A stretch of 48,767 nucleotides of DNA from Chlamydiia bacterium (GCA_016213175.1 JACRBF010000016.1:1-48767); one strand, 5' to 3'. Shown: positions 20,174 to 21,982, counted from the stretch's first letter. Notes: generated by a model not told the origin, from the letters alone. Numbers and translations: made by a program.

Positions 20174-21982
20174 CTATTCTTTCGTGAATTTGCCGAGTTT
20201 GGGTTCGGCAAGGAGGATGAGATCCTTGGCTTGCATAACGATCGATTCTGTGGAGAGTCCGCAGTTGAAGGCAACTCTTTGTAGATGAGCGATCCCTTCA
20301 TCAAAAAAGTTCTCAAGATTCAGGAGATTGCCAAAAGGGGGCACGCCTCCGACGACGAGGCCGTAGCGCTCTTGAATGAGGGCAGGATCTTCGAATTCGC
20401 ATTTTTCCCCCACGGCCACAGAGGCGGCCTTTGCATCGAGCTTGAGATGGGAAGGAATATTGAATTGGTAATTTTTCTTGGAATTTTTTCCTTTCAAGAT
20501 GAGTGCTTTGATGCCCTCTTCGGGAAGGGTATTGCGTACACGCGCTGAATCCTCACTGGTGGGCGTTGGCTCGTGGGTGAGGTGTTCAAAGGGAATATGG
20601 CGATCTTTGCATCTGCGGATGATCTCATTACGAATATTTTCGCCTCCGAAAAAGAGGTGCGCTTTGATGCGAACGGCTGCGATCCGTTTTGTGTCGGAAG
20701 GGAAAAGGGAGGCTTCTCTAATGTTTTTCAACTTGAGGAGCGTCATGGTGAGCCTTTCGAGTCCCATCCCAAAGCCGCCATGAGGTGGCATTCCATATTT
20801 GAAAATGCTTAGGTAATCGGTGAATTGGGAGGGATCCATCTCTTTCAGGCGAAGTCCTTCAATCATCGACGCATAGGTATGGCGCCTCTGGCCTCCTGAG
20901 GTGATCTCAGTTCCAGCGCAGAGGAGATCGAATGTATTTGTCAGCTCGGGATTCTCTTCTTTAGGATACGCGTAAAAAGGGCGTTTGGCTGTTTTCCAGT
21001 CGGTGATGAAGATAAGATCTGTCCCATGGGTTGCAAGGGCCCACGTGCATAGATCGCGCTCTGCCGCAGGGCTTAAATCTGGCTCTTGCCGCTCGTCAAT
21101 GCCGGTGCGTGTAAAATAGAGTTGCTGCGCTTCTGCAAAGGTGAGGCGCGGGAAAGGAGTATTGGCGGGAGCTTGCACAATCGGATGGCCGAGTGTCAGG
21201 ATCTCTTGCTGCGTATGCTCATTAAGGTACTGGACAATGCATTTAATGCACCCCTCTTGGATATCGAGGATTTCAGACCAATGGTTGAAAAAGCCCATTT
21301 CAAATTCAAATTGTTTCCCTTCAGAAAGGTGGCGGGAAGTTTGAGAGGGTTCAGCGCGGAAAAAGGGCATGAGCGCAAATACTCTTTCGTGAACTCCCAC
21401 GAGAATCTGCTTATAGAGCTGGCTGCTTTGGGCGAGAGTGGCTGTATAGCCGAAATAGTCGACGTGGAAAAACTCGGCGCCCCCTTCGGAGGAAGCTCCA
21501 ATAATATTGGGGGCAAAATACTCCACTGCTTGCACGATATGGTGCATGTAGTGTCGATATGCGTGGGCGATTGCTGATTGAATTTTGAAGATTGCCTCGA
21601 GCTGCCGATTCCTGAGGGCTATCGGTCGATGATCCAAAATGAATTCGAGGTCATTGTGGAGCTGCGGCTTATAGTATTCGATCGGAGGGACATCGCAAAT
21701 GGGATTTTCCACTGTGATATGGGGGTCTACGATCTCTACTTTGAGAGCTGCCTCTGCAGAAGCGGACGCACGTCCGCGCACGAGAAGGATCGACCCAGGC
21801 TGAAGACTCTGGAGTTTGCTGATCTCTTCCGGTTTTTCAATGACGATCTGAACCAGGCCTGTGCGGTCTCGGAGAAGGAGAAACGAGAGTTTGCCAAATG
21901 TACGCAGATTGTTGAGAAAGCCGCGGACAGAAACTGGCTTGCCTATCTGACTAGCAAGTTCCCTAGCGAGTGTGCGTTGCAT
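20174..21982 (-). CDS. Class IIb aminoacyl-tRNA synthetase (archaeal/eukaryotic-type AspRS-like) fused to a C-terminal YbaK/ProX-like deacylase domain
   Basis: N-terminal OB fold (VSVRGFLNNLRTFGKLSFLLLRDRTGLVQIV). Motifs LAQSSQLYKQ, FRAEPSQTSRHLSE and GGFGMGLERL, and the core ends FPSDTKRI near residue 435. Residues ~445-602 (HIPFEHLTHEPTPTSEDSA..IKALILKGK..GLVVGGVPPFG..VAFNCG) resemble YbaK-type trans-editing domains. Confidence 0.75.
   Translation of the reverse strand: MQRTLARELASQIGKPVSVRGFLNNLRTFGKLSFLLLRDRTGLVQIVIEKPEEISKLQSLQPGSILLVRGRASASAEAALKVEIVDPHITVENPICDVPPIEYYKPQLHNDLEFILDHRPIALRNRQLEAIFKIQSAIAHAYRHYMHHIVQAVEYFAPNIIGASSEGGAEFFHVDYFGYTATLAQSSQLYKQILVGVHERVFALMPFFRAEPSQTSRHLSEGKQFEFEMGFFNHWSEILDIQEGCIKCIVQYLNEHTQQEILTLGHPIVQAPANTPFPRLTFAEAQQLYFTRTGIDERQEPDLSPAAERDLCTWALATHGTDLIFITDWKTAKRPFYAYPKEENPELTNTFDLLCAGTEITSGGQRRHTYASMIEGLRLKEMDPSQFTDYLSIFKYGMPPHGGFGMGLERLTMTLLKLKNIREASLFPSDTKRIAAVRIKAHLFFGGENIRNEIIRRCKDRHIPFEHLTHEPTPTSEDSARVRNTLPEEGIKALILKGKNSKKNYQFNIPSHLKLDAKAASVAVGEKCEFEDPALIQERYGLVVGGVPPFGNLLNLENFFDEGIAHLQRVAFNCGLSTESIVMQAKDLILLAEPKLGKFTKE

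What the first reader, a model, noticed from the sequence alone, without database searches (positions are those of the whole stretch)
20174..21982. Archaeal/eukaryotic-type AspRS-like synthetase fused to a YbaK-like trans-editing domain
Residues 1 to ~435 have the compact class IIb architecture: an OB fold, LAQSSQLYKQ, FRAE..T.RHL.E, GGFGMGLERL, ending FPSD..R. It lacks the bacterial GAD insertion. About 160 further residues follow whose pattern (..IPFEHLTHEP..T.EDSA...IKALILK...G..VGGVPPFG....V.FN.G) matches free-standing YbaK/ProX-type aminoacyl-tRNA deacylases. To my knowledge Asp/Asn-type synthetases do not normally carry cis-editing domains. Chlamydiae are described as using a bacterial non-discriminating AspRS plus GatCAB. 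This could be a second, specialised synthetase with proofreading, a tRNA-dependent amino-acid biosynthesis enzyme, or a deacylase recruited to tRNA by an inactive synthetase scaffold.
Basis: partly seen in the sequence, partly recalled or inferred. Interest (0 to 1): 0.65.

Follow-up and report, generated by a model that had tools for sequence, protein, structure and literature searches.

The report
Aspartyl-tRNA synthetase with built-in editing domain
A chlamydial gene joins an aspartyl-tRNA synthetase, an enzyme class thought to need no proofreading, to a well-conserved aminoacyl-tRNA deacylase domain, and the same pairing recurs by fusion or gene adjacency in other host-dependent microbes, which points to an unrecognised fidelity problem in Asp/Asn decoding.

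Summary
Window 20174..21982 (-) is one uninterrupted 602-aa ORF with three parts: an OB fold, a GAD-less archaeal-type class IIb AspRS core, and a C-terminal INS-superfamily (YbaK/ProX) domain. It is not an assembly artefact: 70 of 73 testable species-level genomes, almost all Chlamydiota, keep the frame open across both parts. The editing domain is under purifying selection, and its catalytic Lys492 and G545-xxx-P549 loop are invariant. It folds confidently (pLDDT 97) into the YbaK/ProX fold. It is not YbaK proper; the closest characterised relative is E. coli YeaK/ProXp-ST1, a Ser/Thr-tRNA deacylase. The same deacylase clade is fused to bacterial-type AspRS in DPANN archaea. It also occurs free-standing, next to AspRS or AsnRS genes in 3 of 10 sampled cases. 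The synthetase keeps its catalytic residues but has invariant oddities: Gly replaces the adenine-stacking Phe/Tyr, QSSQ replaces QSPQ, and Glu replaces Asp. It lacks both sequence determinants recalled for archaeal-type non-discriminating AspRS. Best reading: an active AspRS with a post-transfer editing module whose substrate is unknown (a Ser/Thr-like residue on tRNAAsp, or Asp-tRNAAsn). I found no published description. Whether a second AspRS, AsnRS or GatCAB coexists could not be tested.

The parts
20174..21982 (-). Whole fused gene, 602 codons plus stop: AspRS (archaeal type) with a C-terminal INS-superfamily editing domain
   Evidence: ORF. Pfam and NCBIfam. Conserved as a single ORF in 70 of 73 genomes.
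21710..21934 (-). OB-fold anticodon-binding domain (residues 17-91). It includes the L1 loop GRASASAEAALKVE (21734-21775), with Ala79 where ND enzymes have Pro, and Asn24 where ND enzymes have His.
   Evidence: Pfam PF01336. Alignments to 1n9w, 1wyd and 3nel. Site counts. Coordinates checked.
20693..21646 (-). Class IIb catalytic core (residues 113-430), no GAD insertion
   Evidence: PF00152, E 6.9e-69. NF003483 scores 437 bits against a cut-off of 353. Best solved relative is Thermus AspRS2, 1n9w, E 1.9e-90.
21407..21430 (-). Amino-acid-binding loop QSSQLYKQ (residues 185-192). The canonical form is QSPQ; Ser186, Gln188 and Lys191 are kept.
21296..21361 (-). Motif 2, FRAEPSQTSRHLSEGKQFEFEM (residues 208-229). 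Arg209 and Glu211 are kept. Gly222 replaces the adenine-stacking Phe/Tyr, and Glu226 replaces the Asp of (L)DxE.
20750..20779 (-). Motif 3, GGFGMGLERL (residues 402-411), with invariant Arg410
20618..20692 (-). Linker TKRIAAVRIKAHLFFGGENIRNEII (residues 431-455). This is the most conserved segment of the protein, at 86% mean identity.
20177..20617 (-). INS-superfamily (YbaK/ProX fold) editing domain, residues 456-602
   Evidence: PF04073, 57.6 bits. AlphaFold2 model of residues 445-602: pLDDT 97, pTM 0.91. Foldseek TM 0.80-0.86 to 1dbu, 2cx5, 1wdv and 2dxa. Mean identity 68% and pN/pS 0.26 across 63 genes.
20507..20509 (-). Codon of Lys492, the conserved catalytic lysine of INS-superfamily deacylases
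   Evidence: Aligns with YbaK Lys46 in 'FKTLLV'. Invariant in 63 of 63 chlamydial genes and in 55 subfamily members. The role of the Lys is taken from PMC11286415.
20336..20350 (-). GXXXP loop, G545-G-V-P-P549
   Evidence: Gly545 and Pro549 are invariant. The role of the loop is taken from PMC11286415.
20103..20149 (-). Terminator-like hairpin with a 20-bp stem, 25 nt after the stop codon. It is part of a perfect 22-bp inverted repeat at 20096-20156, between convergent genes.
21997..24117 (-). pnp (polynucleotide phosphorylase). Its stop codon is 14 nt upstream of the fused gene's ATG, so the two are probably co-transcribed, with rpsO (24216..24485) further upstream.
   Evidence: Pfam. Junction sequence. 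pnp lies directly upstream on the same strand in 35 of 80 related loci.

Best explanation
The gene encodes a catalytically active archaeal-type aspartyl-tRNA synthetase that has gained, in cis, a hydrolytic post-transfer editing module of the INS (YbaK/ProX) superfamily, from a clade closest to YeaK/ProXp-ST1. Proposed mechanism, of which only the anatomy is shown: the OB domain and class II core bind tRNAAsp (possibly also tRNAAsn) and aminoacylate its 3' end. The rigidly conserved linker holds the deacylase domain within reach of the CCA end, either of the same subunit or of the dimer partner. An aminoacyl-tRNA that carries the wrong residue is hydrolysed using Lys492 and the G545-P549 loop. 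Correct Asp-tRNAAsp escapes, either because it fits the editing pocket poorly or because the elongation factor captures it quickly. By analogy with the nearest characterised relative, the most likely substrate class is a small polar non-cognate residue (Ser/Thr-like, or a hydroxylated or otherwise Asp-like analogue). Such a residue would be misactivated by a synthetic site that has been remodelled in this clade (Gly222, Ser187, Glu226). The gene sits in a housekeeping rpsO-pnp-aspS unit and is about as conserved as PNPase, so it is probably a main AspRS of these chlamydiae, and perhaps the only one.
For: Shown:
- The three-domain architecture scores well above family thresholds.
- The fusion is conserved in at least 161 species genomes and the frame is continuous in 70 of 73.
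- The editing domain is under purifying selection (68% identity, pN/pS 0.26) and is more constrained than the OB domain (57%). The linker is the most constrained segment, at 86%.
- Lys492, Gly545, Pro549, His470, Arg483, Phe572, Gly575 and Ser580 are invariant, and Asn573 is conserved in 62 of 63. The Lys and the GXXXP loop are the catalytic hallmarks of the superfamily (PMC11286415).
- The YbaK/ProX fold is modelled with high confidence.
- The closest characterised relative is YeaK/ProXp-ST1: hhalign probability 99.5%, E 4e-23; 100.7 bits, against 90.7 for 3op6 and 65 or less for ProXp-x, YbaK and ProXp-ala.
- Synthetase catalytic residues are invariant: Arg209, Glu211, Arg217, Glu228, Asp352, Glu359, Arg366, Arg410, and the Asp-binding Ser186, Gln188 and Lys191.
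- The association with AspRS recurs independently. The same deacylase clade is fused to bacterial-type AspRS with GAD in Woesearchaeota/Nanoarchaeota (more than 100 clusters), to GAD-less bacterial-type AspRS, and to other archaeal-type AspRS lineages.
- Free-standing members lie next to AspRS or AsnRS genes in 3 of 10 sampled contexts and within 2 kb in a fourth. One has the same gene order as the fusion, 88 bp apart.
- Fused and free forms interleave in a domain tree.
- Operon context with pnp, and conservation similar to PNPase.
Against: - No biochemical data exist for any member, so neither aminoacylation nor deacylation is shown.
- As far as I know, AspRS has not been reported to misactivate Ser/Thr or anything else at a level that needs editing.
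- The motif 2 aromatic that stacks on ATP is Gly in all chlamydial members, so synthetic activity could be impaired or unusual.
- The full-length model was too poor (pLDDT 56) to test whether the two active sites are within reach of one CCA end.
- The link to YeaK is only 28.7% identity, and substrate specificity within this superfamily changes between close clades. The review PMC11295145 notes the related deacylase FthB, which acts on fluorothreonyl-tRNA.
- One neighbourhood links the clade to AsnRS rather than AspRS, which fits the rival below better.
- I could not establish whether the genome holds another AspRS.
Confidence: 0.5

Rival explanations
1. Discrimination by editing. The appended or partner deacylase is specific for aspartate on the wrong tRNA. 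It hydrolyses Asp-tRNAAsp-like products made on tRNAAsn, that is Asp-tRNAAsn, by an AspRS whose anticodon reading is relaxed. Organisms that have AsnRS, or limited GatCAB capacity, would thereby avoid putting Asp at Asn codons. The proofreading would act on tRNA identity rather than on the amino acid.
For: - The clade is linked by fusion or adjacency to AspRS of three different backbones, and once to an AsnRS-like gene 97 bp away on the same strand.
- The known archaeal ND determinants are absent, so tRNAAsn handling in these enzymes is at least atypical.
- At least one environmental chlamydia, Protochlamydia amoebophila, has an AsnRS that the authors could not retrieve from other chlamydiae (PMC2490706). 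Asp-tRNAAsn need not then be an obligatory intermediate.
- Some fused bacterial-type enzymes lack GAD. From memory, GAD contacts GatCAB in the Pseudomonas transamidosome.
- Members of the superfamily are known to read the acceptor stem and N73 (PMC3973320, PMC11295145), so tRNAAsn could in principle be told from tRNAAsp.
Against: - No characterised INS-superfamily enzyme removes a cognate-type amino acid on the basis of tRNA identity alone.
- Hydrolysing the enzyme's own product would be a futile cycle if the organism relies on ND-AspRS plus GatCAB, as Chlamydiaceae do (from memory).
- The conserved Arg483, which could have suggested carboxylate binding, is also present in YeaK.
- If the missing Pro/His already makes the enzyme discriminating, there is little Asp-tRNAAsn to clear.
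- The AsnRS adjacency is a single case.
Confidence: 0.2
2. The C-terminal domain no longer works as a hydrolase. It acts as an appended tRNA-binding or chaperoning module that raises affinity for tRNAAsp/tRNAAsn or hands the product to GatCAB or EF-Tu. The appended YqeY-like domain of Deinococcus GlnRS is a comparable case.
For: - Appended non-catalytic tRNA-binding domains on synthetases are common (PMC1865053).
- Several solved homologues were deposited as 'oligo-nucleotide binding proteins'.
- The remodelled ATP site (Gly222) might need help in binding substrate.
Against: - The catalytic Lys, the GXXXP loop and the FNCG/TxS pocket motifs are invariant over 63 species and across the free-standing clade. 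This is the pattern expected of an active site, not of a binding surface.
- Free-standing members of 150-165 aa exist in many genomes without a synthetase next to them, which fits an autonomous enzyme.
Confidence: 0.1
3. The synthetase part is a catalytically dead scaffold that only delivers the deacylase to tRNAAsp/Asn. A separate bacterial-type AspRS does the charging.
For: - The adenine-stacking Phe/Tyr of motif 2 is replaced by Gly in all 200 chlamydial-type sequences, and by Ile/Val/Ala in other archaeal-type fusions.
- QSPQ is changed to QSSQ, and Asp226 to Glu.
- The score is below the TIGR00458 cut-off (341 against 368).
- The gene also occurs in Legionellaceae-labelled genomes, which presumably have their own AspRS.
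Against: - Every other catalytic residue is invariant: motif 2 Arg/Glu, motif 3 Arg, both acidic metal ligands, and the Lys/Arg pair for the side-chain carboxylate.
- The core is the second most conserved part of the protein (79% identity, pN/pS 0.17). A scaffold would drift.
- The score is above the NF003483 equivalog cut-off.
Confidence: 0.07
4. Annotation or assembly artefact: two adjacent genes (aspS and a YbaK-like gene) merged by a missed stop codon or frameshift.
For: A split arrangement does exist in another lineage: in L093 the synthetase and the deacylase genes are 88 bp apart.
Against: - There is no indel or variant in the source assembly.
- The frame is continuous in 70 of 73 independent genomes.
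- The junction (linker) is the most conserved segment of the protein.
Confidence: 0.01

Closest known systems
Thermus thermophilus AspRS2 (PDB 1n9w/3kfu), an archaeal-type non-discriminating AspRS found in a bacterium
   Same: It is the best solved relative of residues 3-434 (E 1.9e-90). It shares the compact OB plus class IIb core without GAD, and it too is an archaeal-type enzyme in a bacterium.
   Different: It has no C-terminal domain. It keeps QSPQ, an aromatic residue (Tyr) in motif 2, the Asp of LDVE, and the L1-loop Pro and the His associated with tRNAAsn acceptance. The window protein has Ser187, Gly222, Glu226, Ala79 and Asn24 at those positions.
E. coli YeaK / ProXp-ST1, a free-standing Ser-/Thr-tRNA deacylase of the INS superfamily
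   Same: It is the highest-scoring characterised relative of the editing-domain clade: hhalign probability 99.5%, E 4e-23; 100.7 bits. It shares the (V/I)RGT...G(A)KAL, G(A/G)(V/I)PPF and AFN(C/A)G motifs, and presumably the Lys/GXXXP chemistry.
   Different: Identity to the window domain is only 28.7%. YeaK is a single-domain protein with broad tRNA range (PMC11295145). The clade here is fused to, or encoded beside, Asx-tRNA synthetases and is found in Chlamydiota, Patescibacteria and DPANN archaea. Its substrate is unknown.
ProRS INS domain and ProXp-ala-ProRS fusions (Plasmodium, Trypanosoma)
   Same: These are the only described cases in which an INS-superfamily deacylase is part of a synthetase polypeptide and edits that enzyme's mischarged product in cis (PMC11295145, PMC11286415). 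The logic is the one proposed here.
   Different: The partner synthetase is ProRS (class IIa), the substrate is Ala-tRNAPro, and the domain is inserted or N-terminal. Here the partner is AspRS (class IIb) and the domain is C-terminal. The match to the INS domain is distant (33 bits).
Legionella pneumophila lpg1207 (PDB 3op6), an uncharacterised 'oligo-nucleotide binding protein'
   Same: It is the closest solved structure by sequence profile (E 2.7e-25) and has the same fold (TM 0.72-0.81).
   Different: It is free-standing, its function is unknown, and it is about 20% identical to the window domain.
YbaK (Cys-tRNAPro deacylase; TIGR00011, PDB 1dbu/2dxa)
   Same: Same fold (TM 0.80-0.83), and the catalytic Lys aligns.
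   Different: The score is far below the equivalog cut-off (43 bits against 153). This is a different clade.
Bifunctional AspRS-GatC (NCBIfam NF009460)
   Same: It is another C-terminal fusion onto AspRS that ties the enzyme to what happens to its product next.
   Different: The partner is an amidotransferase subunit, which converts the product, not a hydrolase, which destroys it. It has a bacterial-type backbone. The window protein matches this model only over the shared core (62.7 bits against a cut-off of 1379).

Membership tests
Archaeal/eukaryotic-type (type 2) aspartyl-tRNA synthetase, class IIb | N-terminal OB-fold anticodon-binding domain followed by a class II core with motifs 2 and 3, without the bacterial GAD insertion | tested here: met
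   PF01336 and PF00152 hit, with no PF02938. Arg209 and Glu211 (motif 2) and Arg410 (motif 3) are invariant.
Archaeal/eukaryotic-type (type 2) aspartyl-tRNA synthetase, class IIb | Score above curated equivalog thresholds | tested here: inconclusive
   NF003483 scores 437 bits, above its cut-off of 353. TIGR00458 scores 341 bits, below its cut-off of 368.4.
Archaeal/eukaryotic-type (type 2) aspartyl-tRNA synthetase, class IIb | Aspartate-binding residues: Ser and Gln of QSPQ, Lys of (Y/F)KQ, Arg of GGxQR, Asp of (L)DxE | tested here: inconclusive
   Ser186, Gln188, Lys191 and Arg366 are invariant. However, Pro is replaced by Ser187 and Asp by Glu226 in all 63. The residue roles are from my memory of the E. 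coli and yeast AspRS structures.
Archaeal/eukaryotic-type (type 2) aspartyl-tRNA synthetase, class IIb | Aromatic residue in motif 2 (E-F/Y) that stacks on the adenine of ATP | tested here: not met
   Gly222 in 63 of 63 species and in 200 of 200 sequences. Every solved AspRS/AsnRS aligned has Phe or Tyr there.
Archaeal/eukaryotic-type (type 2) aspartyl-tRNA synthetase, class IIb | Aspartylation of tRNAAsp | not testable with these tools
   This needs an enzyme assay.
Non-discriminating AspRS (aspartate--tRNA(Asn) ligase, EC 6.1.1.23), the database name of this protein | L1-loop proline and the His at the T. kodakarensis position-26 equivalent, which allow tRNAAsn recognition in archaeal-type enzymes | tested here: not met
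   Ala79 aligns with the Pro of Thermus AspRS2 and S. tokodaii AspRS. That position is variable and is not Pro in any sequence of the 15-member alignment or among the residues listed. Asn24 aligns with the His in 56 of 63; 6 have His. The signature is recalled from Feng et al. 2005 (JBC) and Tumbula-Hansen et al. 2002, and was not re-read here.
Non-discriminating AspRS (aspartate--tRNA(Asn) ligase, EC 6.1.1.23), the database name of this protein | Genome context: no AsnRS, GatCAB present, and this is the only AspRS | not testable with these tools
   The 48.8-kb window holds no aspS, asnS or gatCAB. The flanks of 80 related loci hold no AsnRS. P. amoebophila does have an AsnRS (PMC2490706).
[quoted passage not shown] | Sequence match above the Pfam gathering score | tested here: met
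   57.6 bits against 25.5, covering 121 of 123 profile positions.
[quoted passage not shown] | YbaK/ProX three-dimensional fold | tested here: met
   Model pLDDT 97, pTM 0.91. Foldseek probability 1.00, TM 0.80-0.89 to 1dbu, 2cx5, 1wdv and 2dxa.
[quoted passage not shown] | Strictly conserved catalytic lysine and GXXXP loop (PMC11286415) | tested here: met
   Lys492 and G545-G-V-P-P549. Lys492, Gly545 and Pro549 are invariant in 63 chlamydial genes and in 55 clade members.
[quoted passage not shown] | Hydrolysis of a mischarged aminoacyl-tRNA | not testable with these tools
   This needs deacylation assays.
YbaK proper (Cys-tRNAPro deacylase, TIGR00011 / PRK10670) | Score above the equivalog cut-off | tested here: not met
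   TIGR00011 scores 43.3 bits against 153.25, and NF007951 scores 25.3 against 243. The free-standing clade members score 35-56 bits.
ProXp-ST1 (YeaK-type Ser/Thr-tRNA deacylase) | Closer to YeaK than to any other characterised INS family | tested here: met
   Profile A2 gives YeaK 100.7 bits, 3op6 90.7, ProXp-x (2cx5) 64.7, YbaK 56-58 and ProXp-ala 33.7. hhalign gives E 4e-23.
ProXp-ST1 (YeaK-type Ser/Thr-tRNA deacylase) | Orthology with YeaK and Ser/Thr-tRNA specificity | tested here: inconclusive
   Identity is only 28.7% over 143 residues, whereas members within the clade are 40-54% identical to the window domain. No curated model or ProXp-ST2 sequence was available, and specificity needs an assay.

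The most novel reading that the evidence does not exclude
The AspRS-linked deacylase clade proofreads tRNA identity rather than amino-acid identity. It removes aspartate from tRNAAsn, so that an intrinsically relaxed AspRS behaves as a discriminating enzyme in host-dependent Chlamydiota, Patescibacteria and DPANN archaea. This would be a third solution to the Asp/Asn decoding problem, beside anticodon discrimination and transamidation, and the first editing activity directed against a correct amino acid on a near-cognate tRNA.
Probability: 0.17. Interest if true: 0.85.

Novelty: new variant of a known kind. Interest (0 to 1): 0.62.

Why it matters
AspRS is a textbook example of a synthetase that needs no proofreading. 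The INS superfamily is described as ProRS-linked or free-standing. A conserved editing domain fused to AspRS contradicts both generalisations. It is present in at least 161 species-level genomes of the scan, almost all Chlamydiota among the 80 shown. It was re-invented on bacterial-type AspRS in DPANN archaea and is mirrored by gene adjacency in small-genome lineages.

This implies a recurrent, so far unnamed source of error at Asp or Asn codons in host-dependent microbes. It also gives an uncharacterised deacylase clade a concrete, testable partner. The databases currently label the protein 'aspartate--tRNA(Asn) ligase', and label free-standing deacylases 'nondiscriminating aspartyl-tRNA synthetase'. 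Neither label is supported by what was tested here. The remodelled ATP and aspartate site (Gly222, Ser187, Glu226) is a second, independent oddity worth enzymology.

Tried and rejected
- Full-length AlphaFold2 on a 15-sequence alignment gave pLDDT 56. That is unusable, so the relative geometry of the two active sites was not assessed.
- The search for related loci with the diverse subfamily alignment failed because no stretch was conserved enough. The single genome scan was then spent on the chlamydial C-terminal alignment.
- The listing of cluster members returned no organism names for the representatives.
None found a description of an AspRS-INS fusion. The chapter that defines ProXp-7, -8 and -9 (Kuzmishin Nagy 2020) is not held, so I could not check whether this clade is one of those clusters.
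- I considered the invariant Arg483 as a possible carboxylate-binding residue specific to this clade. I dropped the idea because YeaK has the same (V/I)RGT motif.
- dN/dS proper is unreliable because synonymous sites are saturated (pS about 0.8). Only relative constraint between domains is used.
- Merged-gene artefact: rejected.
- YbaK identity: rejected.
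Full report
**1.

The minus strand of the window carries a 602-codon ORF at exactly 20174..21982. Pfam finds three domains, each above its gathering score:
- tRNA_anti-codon, residues 17-91
- tRNA-synt_2, residues 113-430 (E 6.9e-69)
- tRNA_edit, residues 470-589 (57.6 bits against 25.5)

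There is no GAD domain. NCBIfam places residues 1-434 in the archaeal-type 'aspartate--tRNA(Asn) ligase' equivalog NF003483, at 437 bits against a cut-off of 353. The older model TIGR00458 falls short, at 341 against 368. The best solved relative is Thermus thermophilus AspRS2 (1n9w, E 1.9e-90), followed by archaeal and eukaryotic AspRS.

**2. It is one gene, not two merged ones**

The window comes from a groundwater metagenome. One 5.2-kb contig at 20x covers the gene without any variant, indel or joint. A search of 5.8 billion proteins returns more than 120 clusters of about 600 aa at 73-79% identity, all with the same three Pfam domains. Where a name is given, it is 'aspartate--tRNA(Asn) ligase' from Chlamydiales/Chlamydiota MAGs.

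A scan of one genome per GTDB species finds 161 genomes that encode a relative of the C-terminal domain. The best 80 are almost all Chlamydiota: Parachlamydiales, Parachlamydiaceae, Simkaniaceae and Rhabdochlamydiaceae. No Chlamydiaceae appear among those 80. In 70 of the 73 loci not cut by a contig end, the frame is open for at least 600 codons across both parts.

**3. Both halves are under selection**

Over 63 full-length chlamydial genes, mean amino-acid identity is as follows:

| Segment | Mean identity |
|---|---|
| OB domain | 57% |
| Catalytic core | 79% |
| 25-residue linker | 86% |
| Editing domain | 68% |

Synonymous sites are saturated, so only the ranking is meaningful. The editing domain is more constrained than the anticodon-binding domain, and the junction is the most constrained segment of all.

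**4. What the C-terminal domain is**

An AlphaFold2 model of residues 445-602, built on 55 clade members, has pLDDT 97 and pTM 0.91. It superposes on YbaK, Thermus ProX, APE2540 and E. coli YbaK with TM 0.80-0.89.

According to PMC11286415, all characterised members of the INS superfamily use a conserved lysine and a GXXXP loop. Here these are Lys492 and G545-G-V-P-P549. Lys492, Gly545 and Pro549 are invariant in 63 of 63 chlamydial genes and throughout the clade.

The domain is not YbaK: TIGR00011 scores 43 bits against a cut-off of 153. A profile of the clade gives the ranking below, and hhalign to YeaK gives 99.5% probability, E 4e-23.

| Protein | Bits |
|---|---|
| E. coli YeaK (ProXp-ST1, Ser/Thr-tRNA deacylase) | 100.7 |
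| Legionella lpg1207 (3op6, uncharacterised) | 90.7 |
| ProXp-x (2cx5) | 64.7 |
| YbaK | 56-58 |
| ProXp-ala | 33.7 |

Identity to YeaK is only 28.7%. Clade members are 40-54% identical to the window domain. So this is a distinct clade next to ProXp-ST1.

**5. The link with AspRS recurs**

An exhaustive search with the domain alone finds 804 relatives. Among the representatives, the domain sits at the C-terminus of several AspRS backbones:
- other archaeal-type AspRS lineages (P0130, P0135, P0197, P0245)
- bacterial-type AspRS with GAD (P0188, P0189; about 745 aa)
- bacterial-type AspRS without a GAD hit (P0127, P0153)

The GAD-containing fusion forms more than 100 clusters named from Candidatus Woesearchaeota and Nanoarchaeota. 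Unfused relatives at 70-74% identity occur in the same group.

Free-standing proteins of 150-166 aa from the same clade come from Patescibacteria, Nanoarchaeota and Woesearchaeota MAGs. I sampled ten of their genomic contexts:
- One lies 88 bp downstream of an archaeal-type AspRS on the same strand. That is the fusion's gene order, split in two. The AspRS is 42-49% identical to the fused cores.
- One is convergent with an archaeal-type AspRS, 20 bp away.
- One lies 97 bp upstream of an AsnRS-like gene.
- One lies 2 kb from a GAD-less bacterial-type AspRS.
- Six have no synthetase neighbour.

In a rough neighbour-joining tree, fused and free forms interleave. That implies several fusion or fission events.

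**6. The synthetase half is intact but unusual**

The following are invariant in 63 species: Arg209 and Glu211 (motif 2), Arg217, Glu228, Asp352, Glu359, Arg366, Arg410 (motif 3), and Ser186, Gln188 and Lys191. These last three correspond to the E. coli AspRS aspartate ligands Ser193, Gln195 and Lys198; the residue roles are from memory. Three positions depart from every solved AspRS aligned:
- Gly222 replaces the motif 2 Phe/Tyr that stacks on adenine.
- Ser187 turns QSPQ into QSSQ.
- Glu226 replaces the Asp of (L)DxE.

All 200 chlamydial-type sequences examined have Gly222 and Glu226, and 198 of them read QSSQ. The other archaeal-type fused lineages have Ile, Val or Ala at the aromatic position. 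The unfused sister enzyme beside a free-standing deacylase gene keeps Tyr. I cannot explain this correlation, and it may reflect a single ancestral change.

**7. Non-discriminating or not**

From memory (Feng et al. 2005 JBC; Tumbula-Hansen et al. 2002), archaeal-type ND-AspRS need a Pro in the L1 loop and a His near the start of the OB fold. The discriminating T. kodakarensis enzyme has Lys and Trp at those positions. The alignments bear this out:

| Enzyme | L1 loop | His/Trp position |
|---|---|---|
| Thermus AspRS2 (ND) | AKAPGG | His |
| S. tokodaii AspRS | KRAPRG | His |
| T. kodakarensis AspRS (discriminating) | PKAKLG | Trp |
| Window protein | AEAALK | Asn24 |

In the window protein, Ala79 falls at the Pro position. 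That position is variable among the chlamydial genes and is not Pro in any aligned sequence or among the residues listed. Asn24 is shared by 56 of 63. So the database name 'aspartate--tRNA(Asn) ligase' is not supported by the known determinants, although a different way of accepting tRNAAsn is possible.

The window contains no second aspS, asnS or gatCAB, and the flanks of 80 related loci contain no AsnRS. The rest of the genome could not be searched. Becker et al. 2008 list an AsnRS in Protochlamydia amoebophila that they could not retrieve from other chlamydiae (PMC2490706). So at least some environmental chlamydiae differ from the Chlamydiaceae scheme of ND-AspRS plus GatCAB.

**8. Context in the window**

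The gene starts 14 nt after the pnp stop codon and ends 25 nt before a 20-bp-stem hairpin. rpsO lies upstream of pnp, with a promoter-like site in front of it. pnp is directly upstream in 35 of 80 related loci, and PNPase is 78-83% identical across them, much like the fusion protein itself. This is a housekeeping setting.

**9. Interpretation**

- Shown: the architecture, its conservation, the intact catalytic signatures of both halves, the fold, the nearest relatives, and the recurrent genomic link to Asx-tRNA synthetases.
- Inferred: the domain hydrolyses a mischarged product of the enzyme it is attached to.
- Unknown: the substrate.

The nearest characterised relative suggests a Ser/Thr-like residue or an analogue on tRNAAsp. 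The AspRS/AsnRS neighbourhoods and the atypical anticodon-binding loop keep open the more novel idea that Asp-tRNAAsn is the target. A purely tRNA-binding role or a dead synthetase scaffold fits the conservation pattern poorly.

**10. Novelty**

[quoted passage not shown] It lists ProXp-7, -8 and -9 as uncharacterised. None of ten full-text searches found an AspRS-INS fusion. The architecture is visible in public annotation (precomputed Pfam hits) but appears to be unstudied. I class it as a new variant of known kinds: a known synthetase type plus a known deacylase superfamily, in an undescribed and recurrent combination.

Noticed in passing
window 20096-20156 (hairpin 20103-20149): A perfect 22-bp inverted repeat (AAATCGAATAAAACAGCGCGGT ... 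ACCGCGCTGTTTTATTCGATTT) lies between the convergent genes 19625..20095 (+) and 20174..21982 (-), and looks like a bidirectional terminator. In the source metagenome, assembler word depth over 20000-20160 is 230-2344x, against 20x for the gene, with many short contigs and loose ends. This sequence or part of it is therefore highly repeated there.
   Followed up: partly
L038, L040, L064: Three genomes labelled Legionellaceae/Legionella carry the chlamydial-type fusion (69-72% identity in the editing domain). In L038 the upstream gene is a class A PBP (MrcA family), and its neighbours match no chlamydial locus. The contig does not look chlamydial, which suggests horizontal transfer between amoeba-associated bacteria. 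By contrast, two of the three Verrucomicrobia-labelled loci (L021, L068) have chlamydial-like pnp directly upstream and are probably mislabelled chlamydial contigs.
   Followed up: partly
P0127, P0153 (fused); L096 6402-7811 (unfused, 469 aa): These are bacterial-type AspRS sequences (NF001750, 549-560 bits, matched in two stretches) that lack the GAD insertion. This is an unusual backbone in its own right. Here it is always associated with the deacylase clade, either fused or 2 kb away.
   Followed up: partly
P0388-P0506: DPANN archaea (Woesearchaeota, Nanoarchaeota) carry a bacterial-type, GAD-containing AspRS with the editing domain, while Chlamydiota (bacteria) carry an archaeal-type one. 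The AspRS types are crossed between the two domains of life.
   Followed up: no
P0315, P0325, P0346, P0376, P0377, P0381 and others: JGI/IMG names many free-standing deacylases of 150-166 aa 'nondiscriminating aspartyl-tRNA synthetase'. The name was probably transferred from the fused proteins, and it is an annotation error that will propagate.
   Followed up: no
L013, L058, L073: In three of the 73 genomes, the open frame upstream of the editing domain is only 511-554 codons, with an in-frame stop in the N-terminal part. This could be a sequencing error, a different start, or decay of the OB domain.
   Followed up: no
window 220-993 (-), 7609-8028 (+), 11263-16366 (+), 43393-43556 (+): Other features of the window are a SET-domain protein; a 139-aa ORF that matches only the C-terminal part of an autotransporter beta-domain; a cyoABCD-like quinol oxidase cluster plus a UbiA-family gene (possibly the haem O synthase); and two tandem tRNA-Met(CAT) genes 14 nt apart.
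   Followed up: no
window 19625-20095 (+): A 156-aa ORF convergent with the fused gene has no Pfam family and is rich in charged, coiled-coil-like sequence. A homologue was found in only one of the 80 related loci (L077, 58% identity).
   Followed up: no
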